A stretch of DNA of 64,000 nucleotides from a phage. The notes under the pieces are model-generated. The model had not been told where the DNA came from, did not search any database, and was given only the letters and a program-made list of their open reading frames with translations. Below, one piece after another: positions 4,864-36,270 of this stretch (its first letter is position 1; each line of letters begins with the position of its first letter). The stretch lies in the sequence record PZ445488.1; one strand, given 5' to 3'. Both the position numbers and the translations under genes were made by a program.

Positions 4864-5484
4864 TTAAAGATGAAGATACCACCCGTTGTAGTTGCTCTTG
4901 CGGACGATTTTCTTTAGGTCTTCATGGTCTCCCACGAACTTTATAGAATAAGAGAAGACGTCAGGTGAGGTTTCTTTGACATCTAATATAATAATGCAAT
5001 CTGCGACTCGATGGTTCAAGAAGGGCCCTATATTGATTCCATTACCACCCGGATAATCACCACTGTATCCTGTGGTAACCGAAATCCATTTCGAATCCAT
5101 CTGATGGGTCTTTACTTCTACGCGTAGACCACAGTACTTAGGATGAGCTAAAACGTCCCATGCATACGTGTACGGGTCTTCTACGTCTTCATTACCTTTA
5201 TTAACATATCCGTCTAGCCAATTTGCTACTACATACTCTGCAAAGACTGCAACCTTACAACGTCGAACAACGTCTTCTTTTATTTGACCTGGATCTTGTT
5301 TCAACGAGTACCGAGCAGTATCAGCGATCTTAACCTTCATTTCGCTAGTCAAAAACTCATTCGACAGGATAAATGTCGGAAGACTCTTCAGCCTCAACAG
5401 TCCCAAGTTCGTCTTTACCATAGATACCTCTAATGTGTAGTTCGCCAAAATAAATGCGGTCACCTTCTTCAAGATATTCTGCAT
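4864..5484 (-). CDS. hypothetical protein at the denB-syntenic position (start uncertain; 159-206 aa)
   Basis: Track ORF; the 5' end overlaps the upstream ORF in another frame, so an internal Met (5421 or 5340) is the likelier start. Identity with endonuclease IV not established. Confidence 0.4.
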   Translation of the reverse strand: MQNILKKVTAFILANYTLEVSMVKTNLGLLRLKSLPTFILSNEFLTSEMKVKIADTARYSLKQDPGQIKEDVVRRCKVAVFAEYVVANWLDGYVNKGNEDVEDPYTYAWDVLAHPKYCGLRVEVKTHQMDSKWISVTTGYSGDYPGGNGINIGPFLNHRVADCIIILDVKETSPDVFSYSIKFVGDHEDLKKIVRKSNYNGWYLHL

Positions 5485-5644
5485 CTACCGGTGGGATTTC
5501 AATAACAACTTCGTCACATTCTAACCAGCCATAGTGTGCATCACCTGGGTGTTTTACCAATTTAGCGCAATACACTGATTTACATTTATGATGGCCACGA
5601 AGATTAGCGATTTTGGATTCTGATACGTCAAATGGATGAATCAT
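5357..5644 (-). CDS. hypothetical protein (95 aa)
   Basis: Track ORF 5357-5683 trimmed to the Met at 5644 because the first 13 codons are the rIIB terminator hairpin. Confidence 0.4.
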   Translation of the reverse strand: MIHPFDVSESKIANLRGHHKCKSVYCAKLVKHPGDAHYGWLECDEVVIEIPPVDAEYLEEGDRIYFGELHIRGIYGKDELGTVEAEESSDIYPVE

Positions 5645-5654
5645 AATTACCCCT

Positions 5655-5681
5655 AAAGAAAAAAAGGGGACCGAAGTCCCC
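5655..5681 (-). terminator. intrinsic terminator downstream of rIIB
   Basis: Minus-strand RNA GGGGAC-UUCG-GUCCCC followed by UUUUUUUCUUU. Confidence 0.65.
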
Positions 5682-5686
5682 AATTA

Positions 5687-6622
5687 TTATTCTGCAAATA
5701 ATTCAGTAACGTCTGAAATTACTTCATAACGACAAGTACGCATCTTAGCATCACCATAGTCAACTGGGATGGATACAACATCACGTGGATGAACTTTAAC
5801 CTTCACAACTTTATCTGAGCTTGAACCAAAGTGGCGAATATAAGATTTAGCACAAACGTGGAGACCGCGAGAACAGGTTTGAGTATCATCGTCGTTAACT
5901 CGAGTACGAGGCATTGAAACAACTTTACCTGGGGAGTTATCAAATGTACCACTATAGCAGTCTAAATAGTCCTTACGAACTACTTTCCACGCATAGAAAT
6001 GACCATCTTCAGTGATTTCAATATCATTTGCAACCAAGAAGTCGAATAAACGTTGTACAGCTTTTTCGCTTGGGTTTTCTAACAGGTTTTCAAGGAACGG
6101 CAGATAGAATTTAAAGTCTTCGCCTTTTTCCATGGAATCAATAATACGATTAACCAAGCCAGAACGAATCTCTATACCTTGATAAAATAAACTACCACCT
6201 TCAATAACAACATTACCGTCAACAAACTTACTAATAGCTTTCTTGATGTTAATAAGTTCGACAGCTTTACTAAGGTTTCCTGCGACCAGATTAGCTTTAA
6301 TTTCTTCAAAATTTGCATGACTTGATGGGGTCGCATTGTATGCTACGCGTCCTTCAATAATTGAAATAAATTTAGATGACGCGTTCCATACTATTTCAGG
6401 ACGATGTCCGCCGATAATAGGTTCATTATTTTCTTGGACCTGTTCTTCGTCTTCAAATTCAGCTGCTTTCTCTTCAGCTTTAAAGTTCTTAACAATCTTA
6501 CGAAGAGTGTCAGTGGAAATATTGAAGTAATCAGCAATTTCCCGACGGGTCCATTGGCCTGATTTAACCAGACCGTAAGCTTCTAACTGTTCTTCTTGAG
6601 ACAAGCATTTAATATTGTACAT
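5687..6622 (-). CDS. rIIB: rIIB rapid-lysis/membrane integrity protein
   Basis: 311 aa (T4 rIIB 312 aa), immediately downstream of rIIA. Confidence 0.75.
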   Translation of the reverse strand: MYNIKCLSQEEQLEAYGLVKSGQWTRREIADYFNISTDTLRKIVKNFKAEEKAAEFEDEEQVQENNEPIIGGHRPEIVWNASSKFISIIEGRVAYNATPSSHANFEEIKANLVAGNLSKAVELINIKKAISKFVDGNVVIEGGSLFYQGIEIRSGLVNRIIDSMEKGEDFKFYLPFLENLLENPSEKAVQRLFDFLVANDIEITEDGHFYAWKVVRKDYLDCYSGTFDNSPGKVVSMPRTRVNDDDTQTCSRGLHVCAKSYIRHFGSSSDKVVKVKVHPRDVVSIPVDYGDAKMRTCRYEVISDVTELFAE

Positions 6623-9150: not shown

Positions 9151-10251
9151 TTACGCTGTGAAGATTTTATCCCACATCGCAACAACTGCATCTCGGTTAT
9201 ACTTCTTCCATACTGCTTCAGCACGTTTAACTCGAGCTTCGTATGTGTCAGTGAATTCTAATACAGCTTTTGCGTAAAGCGCAACTACTTCTTTCTTAGG
9301 AGTAGAGGAATCAATTTCTACACGCACAGTATCTGGGTCATATTCGAATGTCGCGTGCGGATAATCCTTAAAAACTAACTGAATTACAGGGACACCTTTA
9401 GAGATGGCTTCAATAGAACTATTCTCTACCGTACCCGTGTCAGGACACGTATTGATAAGTGCTTTAGCTGTTTTAAGACGTTCCATGATTTCACTGTGTG
9501 GAGCATCAATAATAACAGGATACTTAGCCGGTGGTGCCCATTTACTAGGACAGTATCCTACACCATTTTCGCCTAGTGCTTTAATCGCTTCAAGAGCAAC
9601 ATCAGTACGACGCATTTTAGTGTCATAACGTTGTGCACTAATAATCAGATCAGTCGCCGGAAGAACTTCAGGTTTATCATTCAAACAAATAACCGGATAA
9701 TCTTCGGCTTCAAACAACGGATTTGCTCGCCAATAATCATAATCAATTTTGTCAGTCAGACCTGAAGTCATATAACAATATTTGCGTTCAAATTCACGGA
9801 AGGCTTTAGTAGGAGCATAACTCTTACCACCGTTCTTATGAATTTGAATAGTCTGGTCCCAAATTTGAACAATGCCACGAGATACCGGTTCAAATGGTGT
9901 TGCCATAAAATTCTTATGAACTTTAGAGAGACCCGCGTCTTTAATTGCCTGAACGGTTAGTTTGGTCGGTTCCATAGTAACAACAAAATCGTATTCATGG
10001 ATGCCGGCTAGTTCAACAATCTTACGAGCCATAGTATAACTCATACCTAGACTGAATTTAGTCAGATGACCAACAGGATGATGATTAACCTTCCAATCAC
10101 CAAATGTGTCATTATCAAAGCCGATATAATCAATATCAGCACCGATAGAAACTAAATATTTCAACACATTTAAATGTACTGCTTCAAGACCACCTTGTAC
10201 ACGTTCTGGGTTAAATGGGACTGCGCGAGATGGGATAAACATAACTTTCAT
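9151..10251 (-). CDS. GT-B fold glycosyltransferase (GT4-like)
   Basis: 366 aa; C-terminal ENSSIEAISKGVPVI fits the GT4 E-x7-E / G-x-P-V-I donor-binding motif; N-terminal MKVMFIPS...GGLE Rossmann start. Confidence 0.6.
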   Translation of the reverse strand: MKVMFIPSRAVPFNPERVQGGLEAVHLNVLKYLVSIGADIDYIGFDNDTFGDWKVNHHPVGHLTKFSLGMSYTMARKIVELAGIHEYDFVVTMEPTKLTVQAIKDAGLSKVHKNFMATPFEPVSRGIVQIWDQTIQIHKNGGKSYAPTKAFREFERKYCYMTSGLTDKIDYDYWRANPLFEAEDYPVICLNDKPEVLPATDLIISAQRYDTKMRRTDVALEAIKALGENGVGYCPSKWAPPAKYPVIIDAPHSEIMERLKTAKALINTCPDTGTVENSSIEAISKGVPVIQLVFKDYPHATFEYDPDTVRVEIDSSTPKKEVVALYAKAVLEFTDTYEARVKRAEAVWKKYNRDAVVAMWDKIFTA

Positions 10252-19477: not shown

Positions 19478-20086
19478 TCAGTAACCGACAATAGACAGAT
19501 TCCAGATTGTATAACGTCCATCTTGAATAATAGAATCTACACGCAGTGTAGTCCCTATAGGGAGCATAAATTCACATTCGTCAGATATAAGTCTAGCATT
19601 AGACCGTCTTGTCGCTTCAGGGAAAGCTCCATTGAACTCACAAGATGGCGCAGCCAGAATCATGTTAAGCATATGTTCACGGAAGTTGAAAGCAAATGGT
19701 GCATCTTTGATGCAGAACATATTAAATGTTCCATAAAAATTATATGAAGCGAAGTTACGTGCTACACCGAACACTGGACTAAAGCTCATTACTCTGTCAA
19801 ATTTAATAATACTACCAATGCCTTTATCAACAAGTGTGGCCATAGTTTTCTTAGAGATTCCACGATACATTGTCTCAGGAACTGAAGACGTCCAATTTCT
19901 ACGAACAATTGCACTTAAATCTTGTTGAATGCTATCAGGCTTGTTTTCCATACACTGCCATAGTACACTTTGTTCAATGTCGCTGAATTGCTCATCGATT
20001 TTGTACTGAAGCATATCTTGATAATCCGGGCATTGAGCACGACGAACCATTTCTTCAATTTCACACTCGTTATACGGCATAAACAT
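19478..20086 (-). CDS. ADP-ribosyltransferase, ModA/ModB-like
   Basis: 202 aa; ordered YRG ... SFS ... E-x-E motifs consistent with the R-S-E ADP-ribosyltransferase triad; at the modA/modB position. Confidence 0.5.
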   Translation of the reverse strand: MFMPYNECEIEEMVRRAQCPDYQDMLQYKIDEQFSDIEQSVLWQCMENKPDSIQQDLSAIVRRNWTSSVPETMYRGISKKTMATLVDKGIGSIIKFDRVMSFSPVFGVARNFASYNFYGTFNMFCIKDAPFAFNFREHMLNMILAAPSCEFNGAFPEATRRSNARLISDECEFMLPIGTTLRVDSIIQDGRYTIWNLSIVGY

Positions 20087-20143: not shown

Positions 20144-20725
20144 CTAAAAATTCAACATTTTCAAATGAATGATTTTGTATAACCGAGATAAAGGGTCATA
20201 TTCTAAGTCTTCAATTTCTACAATCTCAAATCTAGAGATACCTGAGACCATATATTCTTGTTCAGATTCAATCATATCTAGGACGTCAACACGTTTTTCT
20301 TCCATAACATGCTTAGGGTTCTTTCCGGCGAGTACAATGTTAATCATGTTTTGGTAGTAATCAAAAATGAATGGAGCATTCCTGAGACTAAGAATAGTGT
20401 ACGTCTGATATTCCCAACTCCCAGAGAACTGTCTGGCCGTACCAAAGTCTGTTGTAAACGATGTTACTCGTCCAGGAGACCAATGGCATCCAACAGAAAG
20501 AAGGGAAAGACGTTCTACTTCTTCTGGAGTTACACCACGATAGAGTTCTACTGGTACTGTAGAAGTCATATGCTTACGAACAAGATGGTCTAATTCATAG
20601 TGGAAATCTGGGTCTTCCTTATAATCAGTGCAAGCCCAGAGAATGTTTTGTTCTTGTTTAGTGAATTTATCATCAATTAGTGCTGCGAGATATTCGCGTT
20701 CTTGAAGTTCAGATTGACATGTCAT
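20144..20725 (-). CDS. ADP-ribosyltransferase, ModA/ModB-like paralog
   Basis: 193 aa; LYRG ... SFTT ... ESEQEYMV motifs; tandem to the previous gene. Confidence 0.45.
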   Translation of the reverse strand: MTCQSELQEREYLAALIDDKFTKQEQNILWACTDYKEDPDFHYELDHLVRKHMTSTVPVELYRGVTPEEVERLSLLSVGCHWSPGRVTSFTTDFGTARQFSGSWEYQTYTILSLRNAPFIFDYYQNMINIVLAGKNPKHVMEEKRVDVLDMIESEQEYMVSGISRFEIVEIEDLEYDPLSRLYKIIHLKMLNF

Positions 20726-22575: not shown

Positions 22576-23094
22576 TTAGTAACCATTATCCTGACGTTCA
22601 AAGTTGTGTTGGTTTTTCAAGTAGTAAAGTTTAAAGATTTCTTCAGCCGAAAGACCTAGACCTTGGAACATATTTAGAACGAAATGCAGAATATCAATCA
22701 TTTCAAATTTAATTTCAAGCTGGTCTTCAGGAGACAGTTCATCAATACGACGATTTCGATATTCAGCATGTTGTGCCTTCCACGGCTTCCATACACTGCT
22801 GGCGGCTTTTTCACCATTGCTCATACCACCAAGTGAAGTCAGCAGTTCACGGAATTCATCATCAATATAATCTTTCTGATTACGCAGCCAATCAACAACA
22901 TCACCAGCAGTGGCCAATTCATCAGGATGTTTGTTATGTTCAGGCTTGTCATTTGCCAGACGAACCTGTAAAGATTTTTGCATATCAAGCATTACCTGCA
23001 GTGGGTCTTTATCTTCGTGAATCAGAGCATTAAAATAAGCTTCTTCTGCTTTATCAACACCAGAAATAAGTTGTGAACATTCATTAAAGTGCGC
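22576..23094 (-). CDS. 56: dCTP pyrophosphatase (dCTPase/dUTPase)
   Basis: 172 aa from the second ATG (first ATG lies in the AAAGGAAA RBS); MAHFNEC...DPLQVMLDMQ...ELLTSLG...SPEDQLEIKFE...EEIFKLYYLKN matches recalled T4 gp56. Confidence 0.75.
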   Translation of the reverse strand, partial: AHFNECSQLISGVDKAEEAYFNALIHEDKDPLQVMLDMQKSLQVRLANDKPEHNKHPDELATAGDVVDWLRNQKDYIDDEFRELLTSLGGMSNGEKAASSVWKPWKAQHAEYRNRRIDELSPEDQLEIKFEMIDILHFVLNMFQGLGLSAEEIFKLYYLKNQHNFERQDNGY

Positions 23095-23185
23095 CATTAT
23101 TTTTCCTTTCAATTCAGTATAAGAGAGTTAATTCTAACATTAATTTTATAAAGCGTAATAAATAATAGGTAACCAAGGAGATATT

Positions 23186-30533: not shown

Positions 30534-31082
30534 TTAACGAGCCCATTTGATGATTTCTGTAATCAAACCATTACGTTCGCTTGCATTAAATCCTATAACT
30601 TTGTTAGCACCATCATGATTAAGTAATTGATATGTTTGGATTTTGTTATGAATTGCAAACTCTTCAAAATGTGAAATGACTGTATTAAAACCGAATGAAG
30701 ACAAAGTAATAAGGTCGTCTTCAAAACTTTCAGTCATTTCGTTACGTGTTAAAATAATTGTGAACACATCATGGTTTTGGCAAAGACGAACATAATCCTG
30801 CTCATAAACATCAAGAACAGAGTCCGCATCTTGACGAATACGTCCATAAACCCAGTTACTAATATATCCACGGTCTAACAGATAAATCTTAGTAGGGTCT
30901 AAATAATTCAACATCGTTTCGAAACAGCCAACTTCATTTCGAGACTTAACATCGAAACGTCCATCAACTGTTCGTTTAGGGAAATCAATCTTTACATATC
31001 TTTCACTAATTTCCATTATGTCATTAATGAAAGTTGTTTTACCGGCATTATCCGGGCCATCTACTAAAATAATTTTAGCCAT
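30534..31082 (-). CDS. P-loop nucleotide kinase, thymidylate-kinase-like
   Basis: 182 aa; Walker A DGPDNAGKTT and DRGYIS (DRY-type) motif; start overlaps stop of the upstream gene. Confidence 0.5.
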   Translation of the reverse strand: MAKIILVDGPDNAGKTTFINDIMEISERYVKIDFPKRTVDGRFDVKSRNEVGCFETMLNYLDPTKIYLLDRGYISNWVYGRIRQDADSVLDVYEQDYVRLCQNHDVFTIILTRNEMTESFEDDLITLSSFGFNTVISHFEEFAIHNKIQTYQLLNHDGANKVIGFNASERNGLITEIIKWAR

Positions 31083-31083
31083 T

Positions 31084-31983
31084 TTATTCCTCGATTACGA
31101 CATCTTCGTATTTAGGTATATTATACGGCGAAGAAATTAAAGCGTTAAAGTAGATGAACTCACCAAGACCTGGATGGAATACTTCTTCAGGATTTTCGAA
31201 ATATTGAATCTTCGGGCGTCCTTTAAGAATTTTATAGTACTCAGTTTTAGTTGGTTTAAAAATTCGAATCAGCGCTTCTTCAGGATACTTATTTCTGTCG
31301 AAGCTATTATTTGGATCGGTTATATAAAGCGGTTGGCCTAATTGAATTGCACATTCAACCACTTGTTCAAAACGATAGCACGGGTCACTAATTCGAAATG
31401 GATGAAAAATACCATCTAGATGAATAGGAGCCAAATCACCTACAAGACGCTGCATGATGGAAGGACGTATAACTTTCTGAGTTACGATAATCTTATTACC
31501 ATCTGCACCGGCGTTAACCAGCACTTCTTTTTGACGTTCATTCAACACAGTAGTTTGAAGTGAACGATTAACCGACAACATATCGGTTTTTAAGAATTCG
31601 TCAATATAAAAACGTGGTTTATTAGGGTCTGCCGTGATATTGAAATTGAATTCTACATCAAAAGCGCCGTCATATCCAGTGATATCTGTTATTAGAAAAT
31701 CACAATCATAATAAGCAATTAATGAATCAACCACAAATTCATTTTCAGACCAGAAATATTTACGAGTGTTATACGCGTTATCTTTATACCATAATGGAAC
31801 AAACTTAAATTCCGGGAAAAGACGTTCACATTCTTTAATATCAGATGCATTACGTGGATATGTAATCACATCACCTGGATTAGCACGGTGCAAATGAAGT
31901 TGGAAGTTGCCATCCTTAAGGATAGCATACTGTCCAGTTTCATAAGACCGCATACTCAAGATTGGTACGCGGAAAATAGCCAT
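31084..31983 (-). CDS. hypothetical protein (299 aa), candidate hmC sugar transferase
   Basis: Sits where T4 carries beta-gt; its ATG overlaps the stop of gene 42 (ATGA). No catalytic motif recognised; the functional call is by position only. Confidence 0.4.
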   Translation of the reverse strand: MAIFRVPILSMRSYETGQYAILKDGNFQLHLHRANPGDVITYPRNASDIKECERLFPEFKFVPLWYKDNAYNTRKYFWSENEFVVDSLIAYYDCDFLITDITGYDGAFDVEFNFNITADPNKPRFYIDEFLKTDMLSVNRSLQTTVLNERQKEVLVNAGADGNKIIVTQKVIRPSIMQRLVGDLAPIHLDGIFHPFRISDPCYRFEQVVECAIQLGQPLYITDPNNSFDRNKYPEEALIRIFKPTKTEYYKILKGRPKIQYFENPEEVFHPGLGEFIYFNALISSPYNIPKYEDVVIEE

Positions 31984-32699
31984 TAGTCAAGGAATCCTTT
32001 AACATAATCAAAATCACGTTCAAACACATGGGCACTTACCATGGTATGAGTATAATCACCAACTTCTACACCGCATTCGTTAGCGATATAATGAAGTAAT
32101 TTTCCTTGGAGATAAAAATCCAACTGCATAACAACAGCACAGTTCTGAGAACGCATATGACAGTGGGTATAAAGCTTACCATCACGAATATAATAAGTTA
32201 CTGAGTCAGTACATGGATATTCAAGTGTTTCGTCCGAATCAAGCAAAGCCTGATCAGAACTTTCTAGAATTTGGAACACAACTCTTCGAGAGTTAGGTTT
32301 TTCTTTAAGTTCTTTTAGAAGAGTTGGTAATTGGGCCGCAATGCGAGGACCATAGAAAGTGTTGAAGTTCGCCGGCAAAACATCTGATTTTGGTTTAGAA
32401 ATAAATTTAGCGACATTAGGATATGCCTTAAACGCTTCTTCTGCGTTGGTACCACCAGAAATCATAAACTTCCAGAAGTCTTCGGCATATTCATAAGAGA
32501 TGCGGTTAATACGTGGGTCGGTCATTTTGAATGATGATGGAGTGTCAACAACTACTGTCATAGACCCAATTTCATTACAACGTCCAATACGAGAATCAGT
32601 TACGAATTCCGGGTTTTCTAAAATTTCACGATTGACTGCTTTAAATGCGGTTTGAAAATCTGCGGCTTTGATATATTTCATTGTGTTATGTTTTCCCAT
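31983..32699 (-). CDS. 42: dCMP hydroxymethylase (thymidylate-synthase fold)
   Basis: 238 aa (T4 gp42 246 aa); NSRR and YPCTD motifs at the positions of the recalled T4 gp42 blocks; synteny. Confidence 0.8.
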   Translation of the reverse strand: MGKHNTMKYIKAADFQTAFKAVNREILENPEFVTDSRIGRCNEIGSMTVVVDTPSSFKMTDPRINRISYEYAEDFWKFMISGGTNAEEAFKAYPNVAKFISKPKSDVLPANFNTFYGPRIAAQLPTLLKELKEKPNSRRVVFQILESSDQALLDSDETLEYPCTDSVTYYIRDGKLYTHCHMRSQNCAVVMQLDFYLQGKLLHYIANECGVEVGDYTHTMVSAHVFERDFDYVKGFLD

Positions 32700-32741: not shown

Positions 32742-32981
32742 TTATTTGAATTTCTTGGCAATGTTGATATAACGTAAAGCTTCAGAATCTATACTTCCAA
32801 GAACACTATGAAGAAATGCATCAGCGTAGTATTCCAATTGAACAGGTTCTTTAATCACTTTAGCCGCTTTGGTTTCAAACAGGCCCATCAGGGCCTTTTT
32901 AAGAATTTGTTCGTTAGTGTTCAGTTTCATAGTCAAAATCTCTTCGTTAAGTTTATAATTAAAACTTTTTCTAGAAATCAT
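32742..32981 (-). CDS. hypothetical protein (79 aa)
   Basis: Track ORF overlapping the stop of the 386-aa gene. Confidence 0.4.
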   Translation of the reverse strand: MISRKSFNYKLNEEILTMKLNTNEQILKKALMGLFETKAAKVIKEPVQLEYYADAFLHSVLGSIDSEALRYINIAKKFK

Positions 32982-34138
32982 TCCGGGTACCTCAAAGCGT
33001 CATCAGAGCTAGTTATATCAATAATAGATATGGAGTTTTCTGCTAACCCGTTTTTAGATAATTGACGTTTATAATATCTTTCACAATATGTACACGTCGT
33101 CCCGCAGATTTCATTAGCACAATCGAAATCTGGATGTCTGAACCACCTTTTTTCTAAAAAGCCATCTAACAAAGAGGTTTCAATATTTACTGTATGTGAA
33201 AACTCAGTTTCGTTTTCAAGAGTGAAAATAGTCTCTAAAGGCTTCCACAGTTCTAACAAATTACCTTCAAACTTTTCAGAAGCGTATGCTTCAAGAACTT
33301 TCAAAATGTAGTCTGTGCTACCTGTACGTCCTGAAACTTTGAATTGAGTGATACCAATATCATTATAAAGTTTCAAATCTTGAGGACGAACAAAACGAGT
33401 TCTCAGCCAGTTAAATGGGTCTGTATCACGAGCTTTAATACAGTGTTGCATTGGATATCCATTTAAGGATTTAGCATCATCAGCGGTAACATCAGTACTA
33501 TGGAAAATATAGCAAGAGTCACGATAGCTACAATGTGTTGTATACCCTTTACCAGCATTAGAACAGAACTCATTTACAAGAACTTCAAATATTATATTGT
33601 TCTTATTGCAAAACTCTGCTGCACGCTTCAGGAAAGAAACTGAACGGTTCTTATGAATTCCGCAGCAGACCTTTTTGATATTATATTGGTCATGCAAGTA
33701 TTTGATTTGAGTTACAGCATCGACATGTAGAATTGTTGAAACTTCAATCTCAATATCTTTATTGACTTCACGAACAATTTCCATAACAACAGGGTTAGCG
33801 ATAGTAATACGCCATACGCCTATTGACCAAAGATACTGAACATAATCCTGAATAGCTTTCTTCTTCCACTCAACTAGTTCTCTTTTTGAACCAGGATTTA
33901 TCGTGTTGAGTGTATAGTTAAAGCAAATACCTAATTCGTTACAACGTTTAACGTAATCTTCTAACATCTTTTTGTCAACGTCAGGAAGCCTAAAATCAGG
34001 TCTGGCTGCTACAAAAGCCATTTCTCTTGTAGAGCCGTATACTTCGTTTATCAAGCTATTAGGATAAGTTTTATTGAGCTCTACGATTTTATCAAGAAGA
34101 GCTAAATCAAAATTCGTTCCGATTTTAAAAGTATTCAT
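32978..34138 (-). CDS. hypothetical Cys-rich protein (386 aa), possible Fe-S / U32-like enzyme
   Basis: Cys clusters EFCSNAGKGYTTHCSYRDSCYIFHS and C-terminal CANEICGTTCTYC (Cx4Cx3Cx2C); not the radical-SAM CxxxCxxC layout; fold unassigned. Confidence 0.4.
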   Translation of the reverse strand: MNTFKIGTNFDLALLDKIVELNKTYPNSLINEVYGSTREMAFVAARPDFRLPDVDKKMLEDYVKRCNELGICFNYTLNTINPGSKRELVEWKKKAIQDYVQYLWSIGVWRITIANPVVMEIVREVNKDIEIEVSTILHVDAVTQIKYLHDQYNIKKVCCGIHKNRSVSFLKRAAEFCNKNNIIFEVLVNEFCSNAGKGYTTHCSYRDSCYIFHSTDVTADDAKSLNGYPMQHCIKARDTDPFNWLRTRFVRPQDLKLYNDIGITQFKVSGRTGSTDYILKVLEAYASEKFEGNLLELWKPLETIFTLENETEFSHTVNIETSLLDGFLEKRWFRHPDFDCANEICGTTCTYCERYYKRQLSKNGLAENSISIIDITSSDDALRYPE

Positions 34139-34195: not shown

Positions 34196-34597
34196 TTATA
34201 GATTAGGTTTATATGATTTAAATGTTTCGAATTCGCCTTTATTCATAAGAGCTTTGAATTCGTCAGGACGCATAGCTTTGTCGTCGATAATCCAATCATA
34301 TACTGGTTTATGTGTTAGCAAATTATGGTACTTCAAGCCAATGTTTGCCAAGTTCTGAATCAGACTTGGGAGAATGTCAATTGCTATACGACCAGGACCT
34401 ACTGACTTCATACCACGAGCCGTGTAAAGCGTTATGGTATGCCCTGCATCATACAGGGCATTAATGGCAGACACCATTTCGACGTCTGGTTTGAAGTTCA
34501 CGTAATCACGATTGTTATTCCATTCCGTGATGCAATCATCGATATCAAAACAAAGATTAAGCATGTTTTCTACATGGTGCATTAGATTCGTTCCCAT
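34196..34597 (-). CDS. HAD-like phosphatase (small)
   Basis: Ordered motifs FDIDDCIT (I), ITLYTARG (II), THKP (III), DWIIDD (IV); likely starts at Met 34582, overlapping the upstream stop. Confidence 0.45.
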   Translation of the reverse strand: MGTNLMHHVENMLNLCFDIDDCITEWNNNRDYVNFKPDVEMVSAINALYDAGHTITLYTARGMKSVGPGRIAIDILPSLIQNLANIGLKYHNLLTHKPVYDWIIDDKAMRPDEFKALMNKGEFETFKSYKPNL

Positions 34598-36270
34598 TGA
34601 TGAGTGATATCGCCACCGATTGGACGATAGGAAACACCAGTTTCTTTATCAGTTAGTACCCATTTACCAGGATTTTTTGTAATCAGAGTAGCCGTTACAG
34701 GTTCTGCTACGTCATAACTAATAGAGCCGTCTTGAAGTACACGGCCCATGTTATGTAATTGCTTAGTCAGAAGTTCCATACCTTTATAATATGCGGCCAC
34801 CGCTTTAAGTGGATTATTCTTGAAATAACCACCTAATGCAATCCAGATAATTGCTACTGCCAAATGATGATACTCATTAAACGAACTCATCTTTCCATAT
34901 TTGTAAACTAATGGATTGATGTTAATAGTCACATTACAAGTTGTTTCATCAATAGTAAACTGACCCCAGGTCGGATTAGCATTGAATTCATCATAACCTG
35001 AAACAGCATAAAGCACTTTAGCTTCATCGTACAATTTTGGCCCGTAAATCTTGGTTTCACCAAAATATCCACGAGGGTCGATAAACTTGACTTCACCATT
35101 ATCAGTAATCATAGTATTACTGAAGTTCGGGTCGCCGTGAATAACAGAGTACTGTCCCTGAGAACGGTTATGATAACGAATAAGATGTTCTAAAGCTTGT
35201 TTCAACATTGGCTTCAGACGTCCAATCTTAGTGTAGTTCACGTGTGTGATTTTACCAAATGAATCAATCAATGGCTGAATGCTTTCACAACGATCAATAA
35301 CTTTCGTATAGAACTCTTTAGTGAAATCACGGCGAACAGTTTCAGGACTTACAAAATAAGTGTCTGTGCTGAATTTCAGTGCATCTAAAATTGCATCAAC
35401 AATTTGTGGACGAGCAAGACTTGATTTGGATTTAATATATTCAAATGCCGGCTTACCTTTAATGCGTTCCATAATAAAGTGGCCGCCAGGATGATAACTT
35501 ACAATCCGTGGAACTGAATCTGATTTAACTTTCTTATACCAATTGACTTCATCTTTTTGAAGTGCAACGCCCTGTTCTGTTAAAGCAATCTTTGTTACCG
35601 TTTCTTCGCCAATTTCAACTGCATTAAAACTACGATTAAGTTCACGAACTTCATGAGCTTTTTCAAGTTTAGGCATATCACCTAAATCAATTAGATTCAT
35701 AAGCTCTGATTTATTGAATGCACTACCGTAAAGGAATTCTACGAAATCACGTCCTTTGCAGTATTCGTGAATTTCCTCATCAGTAGAACCCATGTAGAAT
35801 TCCCAGTCTTTGAACTGATAAATTCCTACAACATTACCACCTGTTGAACCTACGTTAGTGATATTTTCACCATCGAAATTATATCGACATTCATCACCCT
35901 TAACATAGATTGCGTTAACATTCCAAGACCATGAACCAAAGTCAGGAATAATATCACACCAGTTAACAATTACGTTATGGCCATCTAAATCTTTGTATAA
36001 TTTAGCAAGAGCATAAGCAGAACCATACGCTTCATCAACTGTACGAATAGTCACATTGAACCCTTCTTGCTCGCAATAAGCTCGAACAGTTTCAGCAAAT
36101 TTTGAATGAACTACTACAATAATTTCATCTGCGCCAAGGTCAGAATAAATTGTATACAAATTGCTCAGAATAGTGTCTTGTTTATAGTTAACAAGCACCT
36201 TAGGAATATGGTGCGTTATTGGATACAAACGAGTTGCCAGTCCAGCACCAAGAATAACAGCTTTTTTCAT
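34582..36270 (-). CDS. bifunctional sugar-1-phosphate nucleotidyltransferase (RmlA/GlmU-like) + anomeric sugar kinase (APH/choline-kinase fold)
   Basis: 562 aa; N-terminus AVILGAGLATRLYPIT (G-x-G-T-R-L-x-P-x-T); C-terminal half has HGDPNFSN (Brenner HGDxxxxN) and FIDPRG (DFG-like). Confidence 0.7.
   Translation of the reverse strand: MKKAVILGAGLATRLYPITHHIPKVLVNYKQDTILSNLYTIYSDLGADEIIVVVHSKFAETVRAYCEQEGFNVTIRTVDEAYGSAYALAKLYKDLDGHNVIVNWCDIIPDFGSWSWNVNAIYVKGDECRYNFDGENITNVGSTGGNVVGIYQFKDWEFYMGSTDEEIHEYCKGRDFVEFLYGSAFNKSELMNLIDLGDMPKLEKAHEVRELNRSFNAVEIGEETVTKIALTEQGVALQKDEVNWYKKVKSDSVPRIVSYHPGGHFIMERIKGKPAFEYIKSKSSLARPQIVDAILDALKFSTDTYFVSPETVRRDFTKEFYTKVIDRCESIQPLIDSFGKITHVNYTKIGRLKPMLKQALEHLIRYHNRSQGQYSVIHGDPNFSNTMITDNGEVKFIDPRGYFGETKIYGPKLYDEAKVLYAVSGYDEFNANPTWGQFTIDETTCNVTININPLVYKYGKMSSFNEYHHLAVAIIWIALGGYFKNNPLKAVAAYYKGMELLTKQLHNMGRVLQDGSISYDVAEPVTATLITKNPGKWVLTDKETGVSYRPIGGDITHQWERI

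What the first reader, a model, noticed from the sequence alone, without database searches (positions are those of the whole stretch)
31084..31983. 299-aa protein translationally coupled to dCMP hydroxymethylase at the beta-gt position
Its ATG overlaps the gene 42 stop (ATGA) and it sits where T4 encodes beta-glucosyltransferase, yet it shows no recognisable GT motif. It is a strong candidate for the hmC-directed pentosyl/arabinosyl transferase with a novel or highly diverged fold.
Basis: inference. Interest (0 to 1): 0.75.

Follow-up and report, generated by a model that had tools for sequence, protein, structure and literature searches.

The report
First-step 5-hydroxycytosine DNA arabinosyltransferase candidate
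This gene is the RB69 gp46:47-type enzyme that the recent literature already proposes adds the first arabinose sugar to the unusual 5-hydroxycytosine bases of RB69-like phage DNA; it has an ordinary glycosyltransferase (GT-B) fold with an unrecognisable sequence, and it is not directed at hydroxymethylcytosine.

The parts
31084..31983 (-). GT1: 299-aa GT-B-fold glycosyltransferase, ortholog of RB69 ORF047c+046c (gp46:47) and DLP3 gp79; proposed base-proximal 5hoC arabinosyltransferase
31983..32699 (-). HYD: ThyA-family 5-hydroxy-dCMP synthase (RB69 gp48 ortholog); makes the acceptor base. Not a hydroxymethylase.
   Evidence: 98.7% to RB69 gp48, 24.8% to T4 gp42. E 2.9e-160 to PDB 9iqc. Active-site signature ECMRSQNVD against T4 gp42 DCMRSNDGD. 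Activity of RB69 gp48 shown experimentally in PMC13326640.
30534..31082 (-). KIN: 182-aa TMP-kinase-like P-loop protein (RB69 gp45 ortholog), strictly co-inherited with GT1
   Evidence: phrog_761 thymidylate kinase E 5.7e-45. 98.9% to RB69 ORF045c. 344 phage records with the same taxon spread as GT1's 349. Within 4 kb of GT1 in 51 of 53 loci.
32742..32981 (-). 79-aa basic protein (RB69 gp49 ortholog), function unknown
   Evidence: phrog_8601 unknown function. 91% to RB69 ORF049c, pI 9.4.
32978..34138 (-). U32-family protein (RB69 gp50 ortholog); role in the pathway unassigned
   Evidence: Pfam Peptidase_U32 E 7.3e-11. 99% to RB69 ORF050c. 10 invariant Cys.
34196..34597 (-). HAD-type sugar-phosphate phosphatase (RB69 gp51 / HY126 AfhF analog)
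   Evidence: TIGR01689 capsule biosynthesis phosphatase E 3.7e-13. 99% to RB69 ORF051c. Role as described in PMC13326640 sec. 27.
34582..36270 (-). Bifunctional sugar kinase / NDP-sugar pyrophosphorylase (RB69 gp52:53 / HY126 AfhE analog); makes UDP-arabinofuranose
   Evidence: Pfam NTP_transferase E 1.5e-9 plus weak APH-type kinase hits. Role as in PMC13326640.
36452..37087 (-). Arabinose-5-phosphate isomerase (SIS domain; RB69 gp55 ortholog)
   Evidence: Pfam SIS E 1.7e-10. NCBIfam KpsF/GutQ E 2.2e-32 and KdsD E 1.2e-30. 99% to RB69 ORF055c.
9151..10251 (-). GT2: second GT-B glycosyltransferase (RB69 gp3/ORF003c ortholog; HY126 GT with solved structure); proposed chain-extending arabinosyltransferase
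   Evidence: E 1e-248 to PDB 9iqz/9ir0 'phage HY126 glycosyltransferase'. 98.9% to RB69ORF003c. Found in only 212 phage records, none from Serratia, Klebsiella, Yersinia, Proteus or Shewanella phages.
22576..23112 (-). dCTPase-like NTP pyrophosphohydrolase (T4 gp56 type); supplies dCMP and excludes dCTP
   Evidence: phrog_173 E 1.8e-45. Role assigned to RB69p028 in PMC13326640 Table 1. Orthology to RB69p028 was not checked directly.

Best explanation
The ORF encodes the base-proximal glycosyltransferase of the arabinosyl-5-hydroxycytosine pathway of RB69-like phages. The upstream, translationally coupled ThyA homolog hydroxylates dCMP at C5; this is shown for the 98.7%-identical RB69 gp48. The neighbouring SIS isomerase, bifunctional kinase/pyrophosphorylase and HAD phosphatase make UDP-D-arabinofuranose; this is shown for HY126 AfhE/AfhF according to Lee et al. 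and inferred here by orthology. The 299-aa protein is a compact GT-B enzyme. I infer that it binds the UDP-sugar in its C-terminal Rossmann domain, using the family-invariant F193-x-P-F-R197-(I/L)-S-D200, T222-D-P-N225, K246, H270-P-G272 and the always-acidic residue 275. I infer that it transfers arabinofuranose to the 5-OH of 5-hydroxycytosine, giving the alpha-linked first sugar. The second GT (window 9151..10251, RB69 gp3 type) then extends the chain. By analogy with T4, the transfer is most likely post-replicative on DNA, but that step is not established.
Against: No enzymatic activity has been shown for this protein or any ortholog in the literature I could read. Lee et al. saw no arabinosylation by individual purified DLP3 GTs on 5hoC-DNA with UDP-Araf or UDP-Arap (data not shown), and they state that the stage of the first transfer is undetermined. 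The canonical GT4 EX7E motif is absent; E267 is conserved in only 2% of homologs. No sequence profile links the family to any GT family. Foldseek scores UDP-GlcNAc 2-epimerases almost as high as GTs. He et al. 2026 (Nat Chem Biol) and Mahler et al. 2025 (Cell Host Microbe) could not be read and might assign roles differently. He et al. crystallised GT2, not GT1.
Confidence: 0.75

Rival explanations
1. Same chemistry but pre-replicative. GT1 arabinosylates the mononucleotide (5-hydroxy-dCMP), and the strictly co-inherited TMP-kinase-like protein phosphorylates the glycosylated nucleotide. The first sugar would then enter DNA through the polymerase, and only later sugars would be added on DNA.
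For: GT1 and KIN co-occur almost perfectly (349 vs 344 phage records with the same taxa). They are adjacent, often overlapping, in 36 of 53 loci. Natural GT1::KIN fusion proteins exist: P0226, P0236, P0250, P0258. hhalign of the P0250 C-terminal domain against the KIN family gives 95.5%, E 1.4e-8. Pfam Thymidylate_kin hits are sub-threshold. RB69 already has a T4 gp1-type dNMP kinase that phosphorylates 5hodCMP (PMC13326640), so KIN needs another job. Single GTs were inactive on 5hoC-DNA and the authors leave the stage open. The nearest structural neighbours (SPS, BshA, MshA) glycosylate small, often phosphorylated acceptors.
Against: HYD plus dNMP kinase alone put unglycosylated 5hodC into E. 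coli plasmid DNA, so 5hodCTP is polymerase-competent. All characterised phage DNA glycosylations, including DLP3 gp76/77 on RB69 DNA, are post-replicative. KIN may simply be the dedicated 5hodCMP kinase in lineages that lack a gp1-type enzyme. Fusion can reflect co-assembly rather than consecutive steps. Fusion-domain scores are modest: P0236 reaches only 69% hhalign probability.
Confidence: 0.2
2. GT1 is the chain-extending (second) arabinosyltransferase, and the gp3-type GT2 puts on the first sugar.
For: He et al. chose GT2 for crystallography (PDB 9iqz/9ir0). Thomas et al. 2018 originally nominated ORF003c as the arabinosyltransferase. There is no biochemical assignment for GT1.
Against: Mono-modified phages (LC53, Thanatos) carry GT1, and no Serratia or Shewanella record is among GT2 hits. 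GT2 copy number tracks the number of extra sugars. DLP3 GT2-type enzymes gp76+gp77 were shown to add the third sugar to already di-arabinosylated DNA. The Bas46 Aat is deletable.
Confidence: 0.05
3. It is a non-transferase member of the GT-B fold superfamily, for example an NDP-sugar 2-epimerase-like or hydrolase-like enzyme acting on the sugar donor.
For: Foldseek ranks UDP-GlcNAc 2-epimerases at E ~2e-6, next to MshA at 1.2e-6. The canonical EX7E motif is missing.
Confidence: 0.04
4. One reading: an hmC-directed pentosyltransferase working downstream of a dCMP hydroxymethylase.
For: Thomas et al. 2018 reported arabinosyl-hmC. Many GenBank records annotate the upstream gene as dCMP hydroxymethylase. 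A remote (19% identity) GT1-like protein sits downstream of a genuine hydroxymethylase in Serratia phage PS2.
Against: NMR, MS and 18O2 work shows that the RB69 base is arabosyl-linked 5-hydroxycytosine (arabinosyl-5-hydroxycytosine) and that gp48 is a hydroxylase (PMC13326640; PMC13390438). The window enzyme is 98.7% identical to gp48. The Asn-169 signature is present in 49 of 50 GT1-linked ThyA homologs. The PS2 cousin lacks nearly all family-invariant residues.
Confidence: 0.02

Closest known systems
RB69 gp46:47 / Acinetobacter phage DLP3 gp79 'arabinosyltransferase 1' (Lee et al., NAR 2026, PMC13326640); PHROG 3891
   Same: Ortholog: 99% identity to RB69 ORF047c+046c. Same neighbours and same predicted fold, with the same structural hits (3c4q, 6kih).
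   Different: Nothing of substance. In this window the ORF is intact, whereas the RB69 reference record splits it through a sequencing error.
GT4-type retaining GT-B glycosyltransferases (sucrose-phosphate synthase 6kih, BshA 6n1x, MshA 3c4q, PimA 2gej)
   Different: 7-12% identity. No Pfam or HMM match. 299 aa against 360-400 aa. EX7E motif not conserved. The Gly-rich N-terminal loop is replaced by an invariant P-I-x-S-M-R-S motif. The acceptor is a modified nucleobase.
T4 beta-glucosyltransferase (b-gt)
   Same: Same genomic slot, immediately downstream of the gene-42-family enzyme and upstream of uvsX. Same logical role, first sugar on a C5-oxygenated cytosine. GT-B superfamily.
T4 alpha-glucosyltransferase (1y6f)
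   Different: 12% identity, 400 aa, hmC acceptor, UDP-glucose donor.
RB69 gp3 / HY126 glycosyltransferase (PDB 9iqz, 9ir0) / probably 'Aat' of Mahler et al.
   Different: No pairwise sequence similarity (E 3.0). 366 aa. Restricted to di- and tri-arabinosylating phages. Proposed to extend the chain rather than start it. Dispensable in Bas46.

Membership tests
RB69 gp46:47 / DLP3 gp79 family (PHROG 3891; proposed 5hoC arabinosyltransferase 1) | Full-length sequence homology to RB69 ORF047c+046c | tested here: met
   98.9% over residues 1-181 and 99.1% over 184-299. phrog_3891 E 7.5e-156.
RB69 gp46:47 / DLP3 gp79 family (PHROG 3891; proposed 5hoC arabinosyltransferase 1) | Adjacent to a 5hodCMP-synthase-type ThyA homolog (Asn at ThyA-169) | tested here: met
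   1-nt overlap with the upstream gene. Signature ECMRSQNVD. 49 of 50 linked homologs have Asn-169.
RB69 gp46:47 / DLP3 gp79 family (PHROG 3891; proposed 5hoC arabinosyltransferase 1) | Family-invariant residues present (M11 R12 S13, K23 D24 G25 N26, R33, F193/P195/F196/R197/D200, T222/P224/N225, K246, H270 P271 G272) | tested here: met
   All are invariant in the 55-sequence alignment A1 whose first row is the window protein.
RB69 gp46:47 / DLP3 gp79 family (PHROG 3891; proposed 5hoC arabinosyltransferase 1) | Transfers arabinofuranose from UDP-Araf to 5-hydroxycytosine | not testable with these tools
   Not shown for any member in the readable literature. Individual DLP3 GTs were inactive on 5hoC-DNA (PMC13326640 sec. 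26).
GT-B fold glycosyltransferase superfamily | Two Rossmann-like alpha/beta domains with an inter-domain cleft | tested here: met
GT-B fold glycosyltransferase superfamily | Match to a curated GT sequence family (e.g. Pfam Glycos_transf_1 / Glyco_trans_4) | tested here: not met
   0 of 55 members match any GT Pfam model at E<=10. A profile against PDB sequences found nothing. The exhaustive profile search returned only 230 clusters, with no bridge to large GT families.
GT-B fold glycosyltransferase superfamily | C-terminal-domain nucleotide-sugar binding residues (Arg/Lys for phosphates, Glu for ribose) | tested here: inconclusive
   Invariant R197, K246, H270-P-G and an always-acidic residue 275 lie in the C-terminal domain. 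Their equivalence to donor-binding residues could not be checked without coordinates.
CAZy GT4-like retaining enzymes | EX7E motif | tested here: not met
   E267...E275 fits the spacing in this protein, but E267 is conserved in only 2% of homologs (Lys or Thr elsewhere).
CAZy GT4-like retaining enzymes | Retention of anomeric configuration | not testable with these tools
   Lee et al. report an alpha linkage for the base-proximal arabinose. The donor anomer and mechanism are not established.
T4 beta-glucosyltransferase family | Sequence or close structural homology to T4 b-gt | tested here: not met
T4 beta-glucosyltransferase family | Acts on hydroxymethylcytosine made by gp42 | tested here: not met
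   The upstream enzyme is the 5hodCMP synthase type, not the gp42 type. The phage base is 5hoC (PMC13326640, PMC13390438).
UDP-GlcNAc 2-epimerase-like (non-transferase GT-B) | Closest structural neighbours are epimerases | tested here: not met

The most novel reading that the evidence does not exclude
The first arabinose is added before replication. GT1 glycosylates 5-hydroxy-dCMP, and the always-linked (sometimes fused) TMP-kinase-like protein is a dedicated kinase for the bulky arabinosyl-nucleotide. A sugar-bearing dNTP would then be polymerised into DNA. This would be a departure from the T4 paradigm, in which phage DNA sugars are added only after synthesis.
Probability: 0.2. Interest if true: 0.7.

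Novelty: already known. Interest (0 to 1): 0.27.

Why it matters
Arabinosyl-5-hydroxycytosine protects a large group of therapeutic-candidate coliphages and Acinetobacter phages against restriction, DNA glycosylases and some CRISPR systems. The enzyme that attaches the first sugar to the base is the one step of the pathway without published biochemical proof in what I could read. Identifying it correctly matters for engineering these phages, for making defined modified DNA, and for annotation. Most of the annotated phage records listed label this gene 'hypothetical protein', and they label its upstream partner either generically as 'thymidylate synthase' or wrongly as 'dCMP hydroxymethylase'. 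The identity of this gene is already in the literature, so the finding itself adds little. The residual value lies in the unresolved question of whether the first transfer occurs on DNA or on the nucleotide.

Tried and rejected
1. An isoelectric-point argument: GT1 family median pI is 5.2 against 9.05 for T4 b-gt, which might suggest GT1 does not bind DNA. I rejected it because gp3-type GTs, whose DLP3 members act on DNA, have pI 5.3-8.4.
2. Canonical EX7E motif: the spacing fits in this protein but the first Glu is not conserved.
3. The N-terminal ~185-aa extension of the ~550-aa GT1 proteins (e.g. L054). It is not the kinase and is not matched by my HAD profile. Only sub-threshold Pfam HAD hits appear. 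Unresolved.
4. The promoter/terminator scan of the cluster was no better than shuffles.
5. BLASTP alignment of the ThyA homolog to E. coli ThyA gave a register shifted by two residues around the diagnostic positions. A 53-sequence MAFFT alignment resolved it.
6. He et al. 2026 and Mahler et al. 2025 are not in the library. Searches for Afh gene names found nothing usable.
7. The transposon-mutagenesis preprint on Bas46 and LC53 gives no gene-level essentiality data for this gene.

Full report
OBSERVATION. The ORF exists exactly as given (31084..31983, 299 aa, ATG start), but it lies on the minus strand. Reading the minus strand, the upstream ORF (31983..32699) ends GAC-TAA, and the last A of TAA is the A of the target's ATG. 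The junction is therefore TAATG, a 1-nt overlap, not ATGA. The target's own stop is followed after one base (TAA-A-ATG) by a 182-aa gene at 30534..31082. Three genes are thus packed head to tail, which is compatible with translational coupling. An AAGGA sequence lies 11 nt upstream of the ATG. A consensus promoter/terminator scan found nothing above shuffled expectation and no minus-strand terminator inside the cluster.

WHAT PHAGE THIS IS, AND ORTHOLOGY. The 5.8-kb neighbourhood is 97-98% identical to Mosigvirus genomes such as SHSML-52-1 and p000v. tblastn of the protein finds 349 phage records. One is RB69, where the match is 99% identical but split into two pieces under RB69ORF047c and RB69ORF046c. 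Direct BLASTP gives 98.9% identity for residues 1-181 against ORF047c and 99.1% for residues 184-299 against ORF046c. Lee et al. (NAR 2026, PMC13326640) state that RB69 genes 46 and 47 are one ORF split by a sequencing error. They model it as one protein and call it putative 'arabinosyltransferase 1'. Every neighbour is likewise 91-99% identical to its RB69 counterpart, gp45 and gp48 to gp55. Gene order is 43-55-54-53:52-51-50-49-48-47:46-45-uvsX-40-41 in RB69 and the window, against 43-imm.1-imm-42-b-gt-segA-uvsX-40-41 in T4. The target does occupy the beta-gt slot, but it shows no sequence similarity to T4 b-gt (E 3.8).

THE UPSTREAM GENE IS A HYDROXYLASE, NOT A HYDROXYMETHYLASE. It belongs to the thymidylate synthase family. 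It is 98.7% identical to RB69 gp48 and only 24.8% identical to T4 gp42. It matches PDB 9iqc/9ir2/9iqu at E 2.9e-160. Lee et al. showed in vivo, with 18O2 labelling, that RB69 gp48 converts dCMP to 5-hydroxy-dCMP using a flavin. They also showed that RB69 DNA carries mono- and di-arabinosylated 5-hydroxycytosine, not arabinosyl-hmC as first reported in 2018. An independent paper on the Mosigvirus NP agrees (PMC13390438). Lee et al. propose Asn at E. coli ThyA position 169 as diagnostic. In my MAFFT alignment the residues at positions 143/146/165-169/173/177 read ECMRSQNVD for the window enzyme. They read DCMRSNDGD for T4 gp42 and LCQRSCDGN for E. coli ThyA.

The family's invariant residues are M11-R12-S13, K23-D24-G25-N26, R33, F193/P195/F196/R197/D200/Y203, T222/P224/N225, K246 and H270-P271-G272. 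Residue 275 is always Glu or Asp. The apparent EX7E (E267...E275) is not conserved.

WHICH TRANSFERASE ACTS FIRST. The window also encodes the RB69 gp3 ortholog (9151..10251). It is near-identical to the crystallised 'phage HY126 glycosyltransferase' 9iqz/9ir0 (E 1e-248). I compared distributions in the phage collection:
- GT1 (the target) occurs in 349 records across Escherichia, Acinetobacter, Klebsiella, Shigella, Serratia, Enterobacter, Proteus, Yersinia, Shewanella and other phages.
- GT2 occurs in only 212 records. All are Escherichia/Shigella Mosigvirus-type phages, one Tegunavirus record, or Acinetobacter phages. The listed Acinetobacter records have two matching places each.
- LC53 carries one arabinose and Bas46 two (bioRxiv 10.64898/2025.12.19.695335). 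Thanatos carries one pentose and, according to Lee et al., a single GT. DLP3 carries three arabinoses and has GT1 plus two GT2-type genes.

The number of sugars therefore equals one plus the number of GT2 copies. GT2-type enzymes gp76+gp77 were shown to add the third sugar to RB69 DNA, and the Bas46 'Aat' can be deleted (PMC13216743). This supports GT1 as the universal, base-proximal transferase.

SYNTENY ACROSS DISTANT RELATIVES. I examined 53 loci that carry a GT1 homolog, down to 24% identity. Many are close relatives, so these are not independent counts.
- The ThyA-like hydroxylase lies within 4 kb in 48 loci and directly upstream (gap <=15 nt, often a 1- or 4-nt overlap) in 41.
- The TMP-kinase-like gene lies within 4 kb in 51 loci and directly downstream in 36.
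- Sugar-activation genes (SIS, NTP-transferase/kinase, HAD) are in the locus in 33. They are mostly missing near the 346-358-aa 'long' GT1 forms.
- 49 of 50 linked ThyA homologs have Asn-169 and one has Ser.

The conserved core is therefore hydroxylase plus GT1 plus kinase. The kinase-like gene is found in 344 phage records with the same taxon profile as GT1.

A NEW OBSERVATION: GT1::KINASE FUSIONS. Among distant family members, P0226, P0236, P0250 and P0258 (550-599 aa) carry GT1 at the N-terminus. Their C-terminal domain begins LIVLEGFDRIGKD(T/S), a TMPK/dNK-type P-loop. My kinase HMM matches them, and Pfam Thymidylate_kin gives sub-threshold hits at the same place (P0226 E 1.2e-4). hhalign against a 13-member kinase alignment gives 95.5% probability (E 1.4e-8) for P0250 and 69% for P0236. 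One fusion sits in a full SIS/NTP-transferase/U32 cluster (L060). RB69 already has a gp1-type dNMP kinase that phosphorylates 5hodCMP. [quoted passage not shown] Together this keeps a pre-replicative, nucleotide-level first glycosylation alive as a minority hypothesis, which I put at about 0.2. Against it, 5hodC reaches DNA without any GT, all characterised phage DNA glycosylations are post-replicative, and the kinase may simply be the pathway's 5hodCMP kinase.

MECHANISM, SHOWN VERSUS INFERRED.
- Shown, by others, for 98-99% identical proteins: dCMP is hydroxylated to 5hodCMP; 5hodCMP is phosphorylated by the gp1-type kinase; and the DNA carries alpha-linked arabinose on the 5-oxygen.
- Shown for HY126 according to Lee et al.: AfhE and AfhF make UDP-arabinose.
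- Shown here: orthology, GT-B fold, invariant residues, distribution, synteny, fusions.
- Inferred: this protein uses UDP-Araf and transfers the first arabinose to 5hoC; the C-terminal invariant residues bind the donor; transfer occurs on DNA.

NOVELTY AND VERDICT. The protein, its predicted fold and its proposed role were published in 2025-2026, so I rate it already known. The acceptor (hmC), the identity of the upstream gene, the 'novel fold' and the ATGA detail were wrong. Residual interest comes from the missing biochemical proof and the unresolved stage of the first transfer.

LIMITS. I could not read He et al. 2026 or Mahler et al. 2025. No model coordinates were available for residue-level superposition, so donor-site assignments are inference. 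The locus counts include redundant relatives.

Noticed in passing
window 32978..34138 (-); also L055 6954..8051, L056 5783..6865, L060 10053..11153: The cluster's U32 'peptidase' (RB69 gp50 ortholog) belongs to the family that includes the O2-independent C5 hydroxylases RlhA (ho5C in 23S rRNA, PMC5727448), TrhP (ho5U, PMC6599085) and UbiU/V (PMC6747719; prephenate as O donor, PMC10990095). It has 10 invariant Cys including CX4CX3CX2C. It accompanies GT1 in enterobacterial-phage loci but not in the Acinetobacter or Pseudomonas phage loci, nor in the JS98-like coliphage loci. In three loci from two lineages (L055/L056, L060), GT1, the kinase and U32 occur with no ThyA-like hydroxylase within the DNA held. 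It may be an anaerobic or alternative route to 5-hydroxycytosine. Lee et al. do not mention U32, TrhP or RlhA and label it 'sugar or heterocycle reductase'.
   Followed up: partly
P0226, P0236, P0250, P0258; L060 5412..7064: Natural fusion proteins join the GT1 domain to a C-terminal TMP-kinase-like P-loop domain, in the same order as the separate genes in the window.
   Followed up: partly
L059 (Serratia phage PS2, NC_024121) 5001..5927: A remote GT1 homolog (hhalign 99.2%, 19% identity) sits directly downstream of a genuine T4-type dCMP hydroxymethylase (signature DCMRSNDGD, 57% identical to T4 gp42). It lies upstream of a beta-glucosyl-HMC alpha-glucosyltransferase and b-gt. It has lost almost all family-invariant residues, so it is either a degenerate relic or a functionally diverged cousin in an hmC phage.
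   Followed up: partly
L003 6739..7293; L001 605..1123: In two distant metagenomic loci a Flavodoxin_2-family (NAD(P)H-dependent flavin reductase-like) gene lies immediately upstream of the ThyA-like hydroxylase (L003) or in the same cluster (L001). That fits the flavin dependence of 5hodCMP synthase.
   Followed up: no
L054 5452..7107; P0140, P0150, P0151, P0166, P0170, P0234: A subgroup of GT1 proteins of about 536-553 aa has an N-terminal extension of about 185 aa and unknown identity. It is not the kinase. There are only sub-threshold Pfam HAD hits, and my HAD profile does not match it.
   Followed up: partly
L035-L048 (long-form GT1, 346-358 aa): About 20 loci carry the hydroxylase-GT1-kinase trio with no arabinose-activation genes within +/-6 kb. 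These phages may attach a host-supplied sugar rather than arabinose to 5hoC.
   Followed up: no
window 31983..32699 and 31084..31983; GenBank records: Most of the public Mosigvirus records listed annotate the 5hodCMP synthase as 'thymidylate synthase' or 'dCMP hydroxymethylase'. They annotate GT1 as 'hypothetical protein', and in one case as 'RNA polymerase binding protein'. The RB69 reference record still splits GT1 and the NTP-transferase/kinase into two ORFs each.
   Followed up: yes
window 19478..20086 and 20144..20725 (-): Two adjacent paralogous ORFs both match the RNA polymerase ADP-ribosylase PHROG (phrog_832). They are ordinary T-even Alt/ModA/ModB-type genes and unrelated to the finding.
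   Followed up: no
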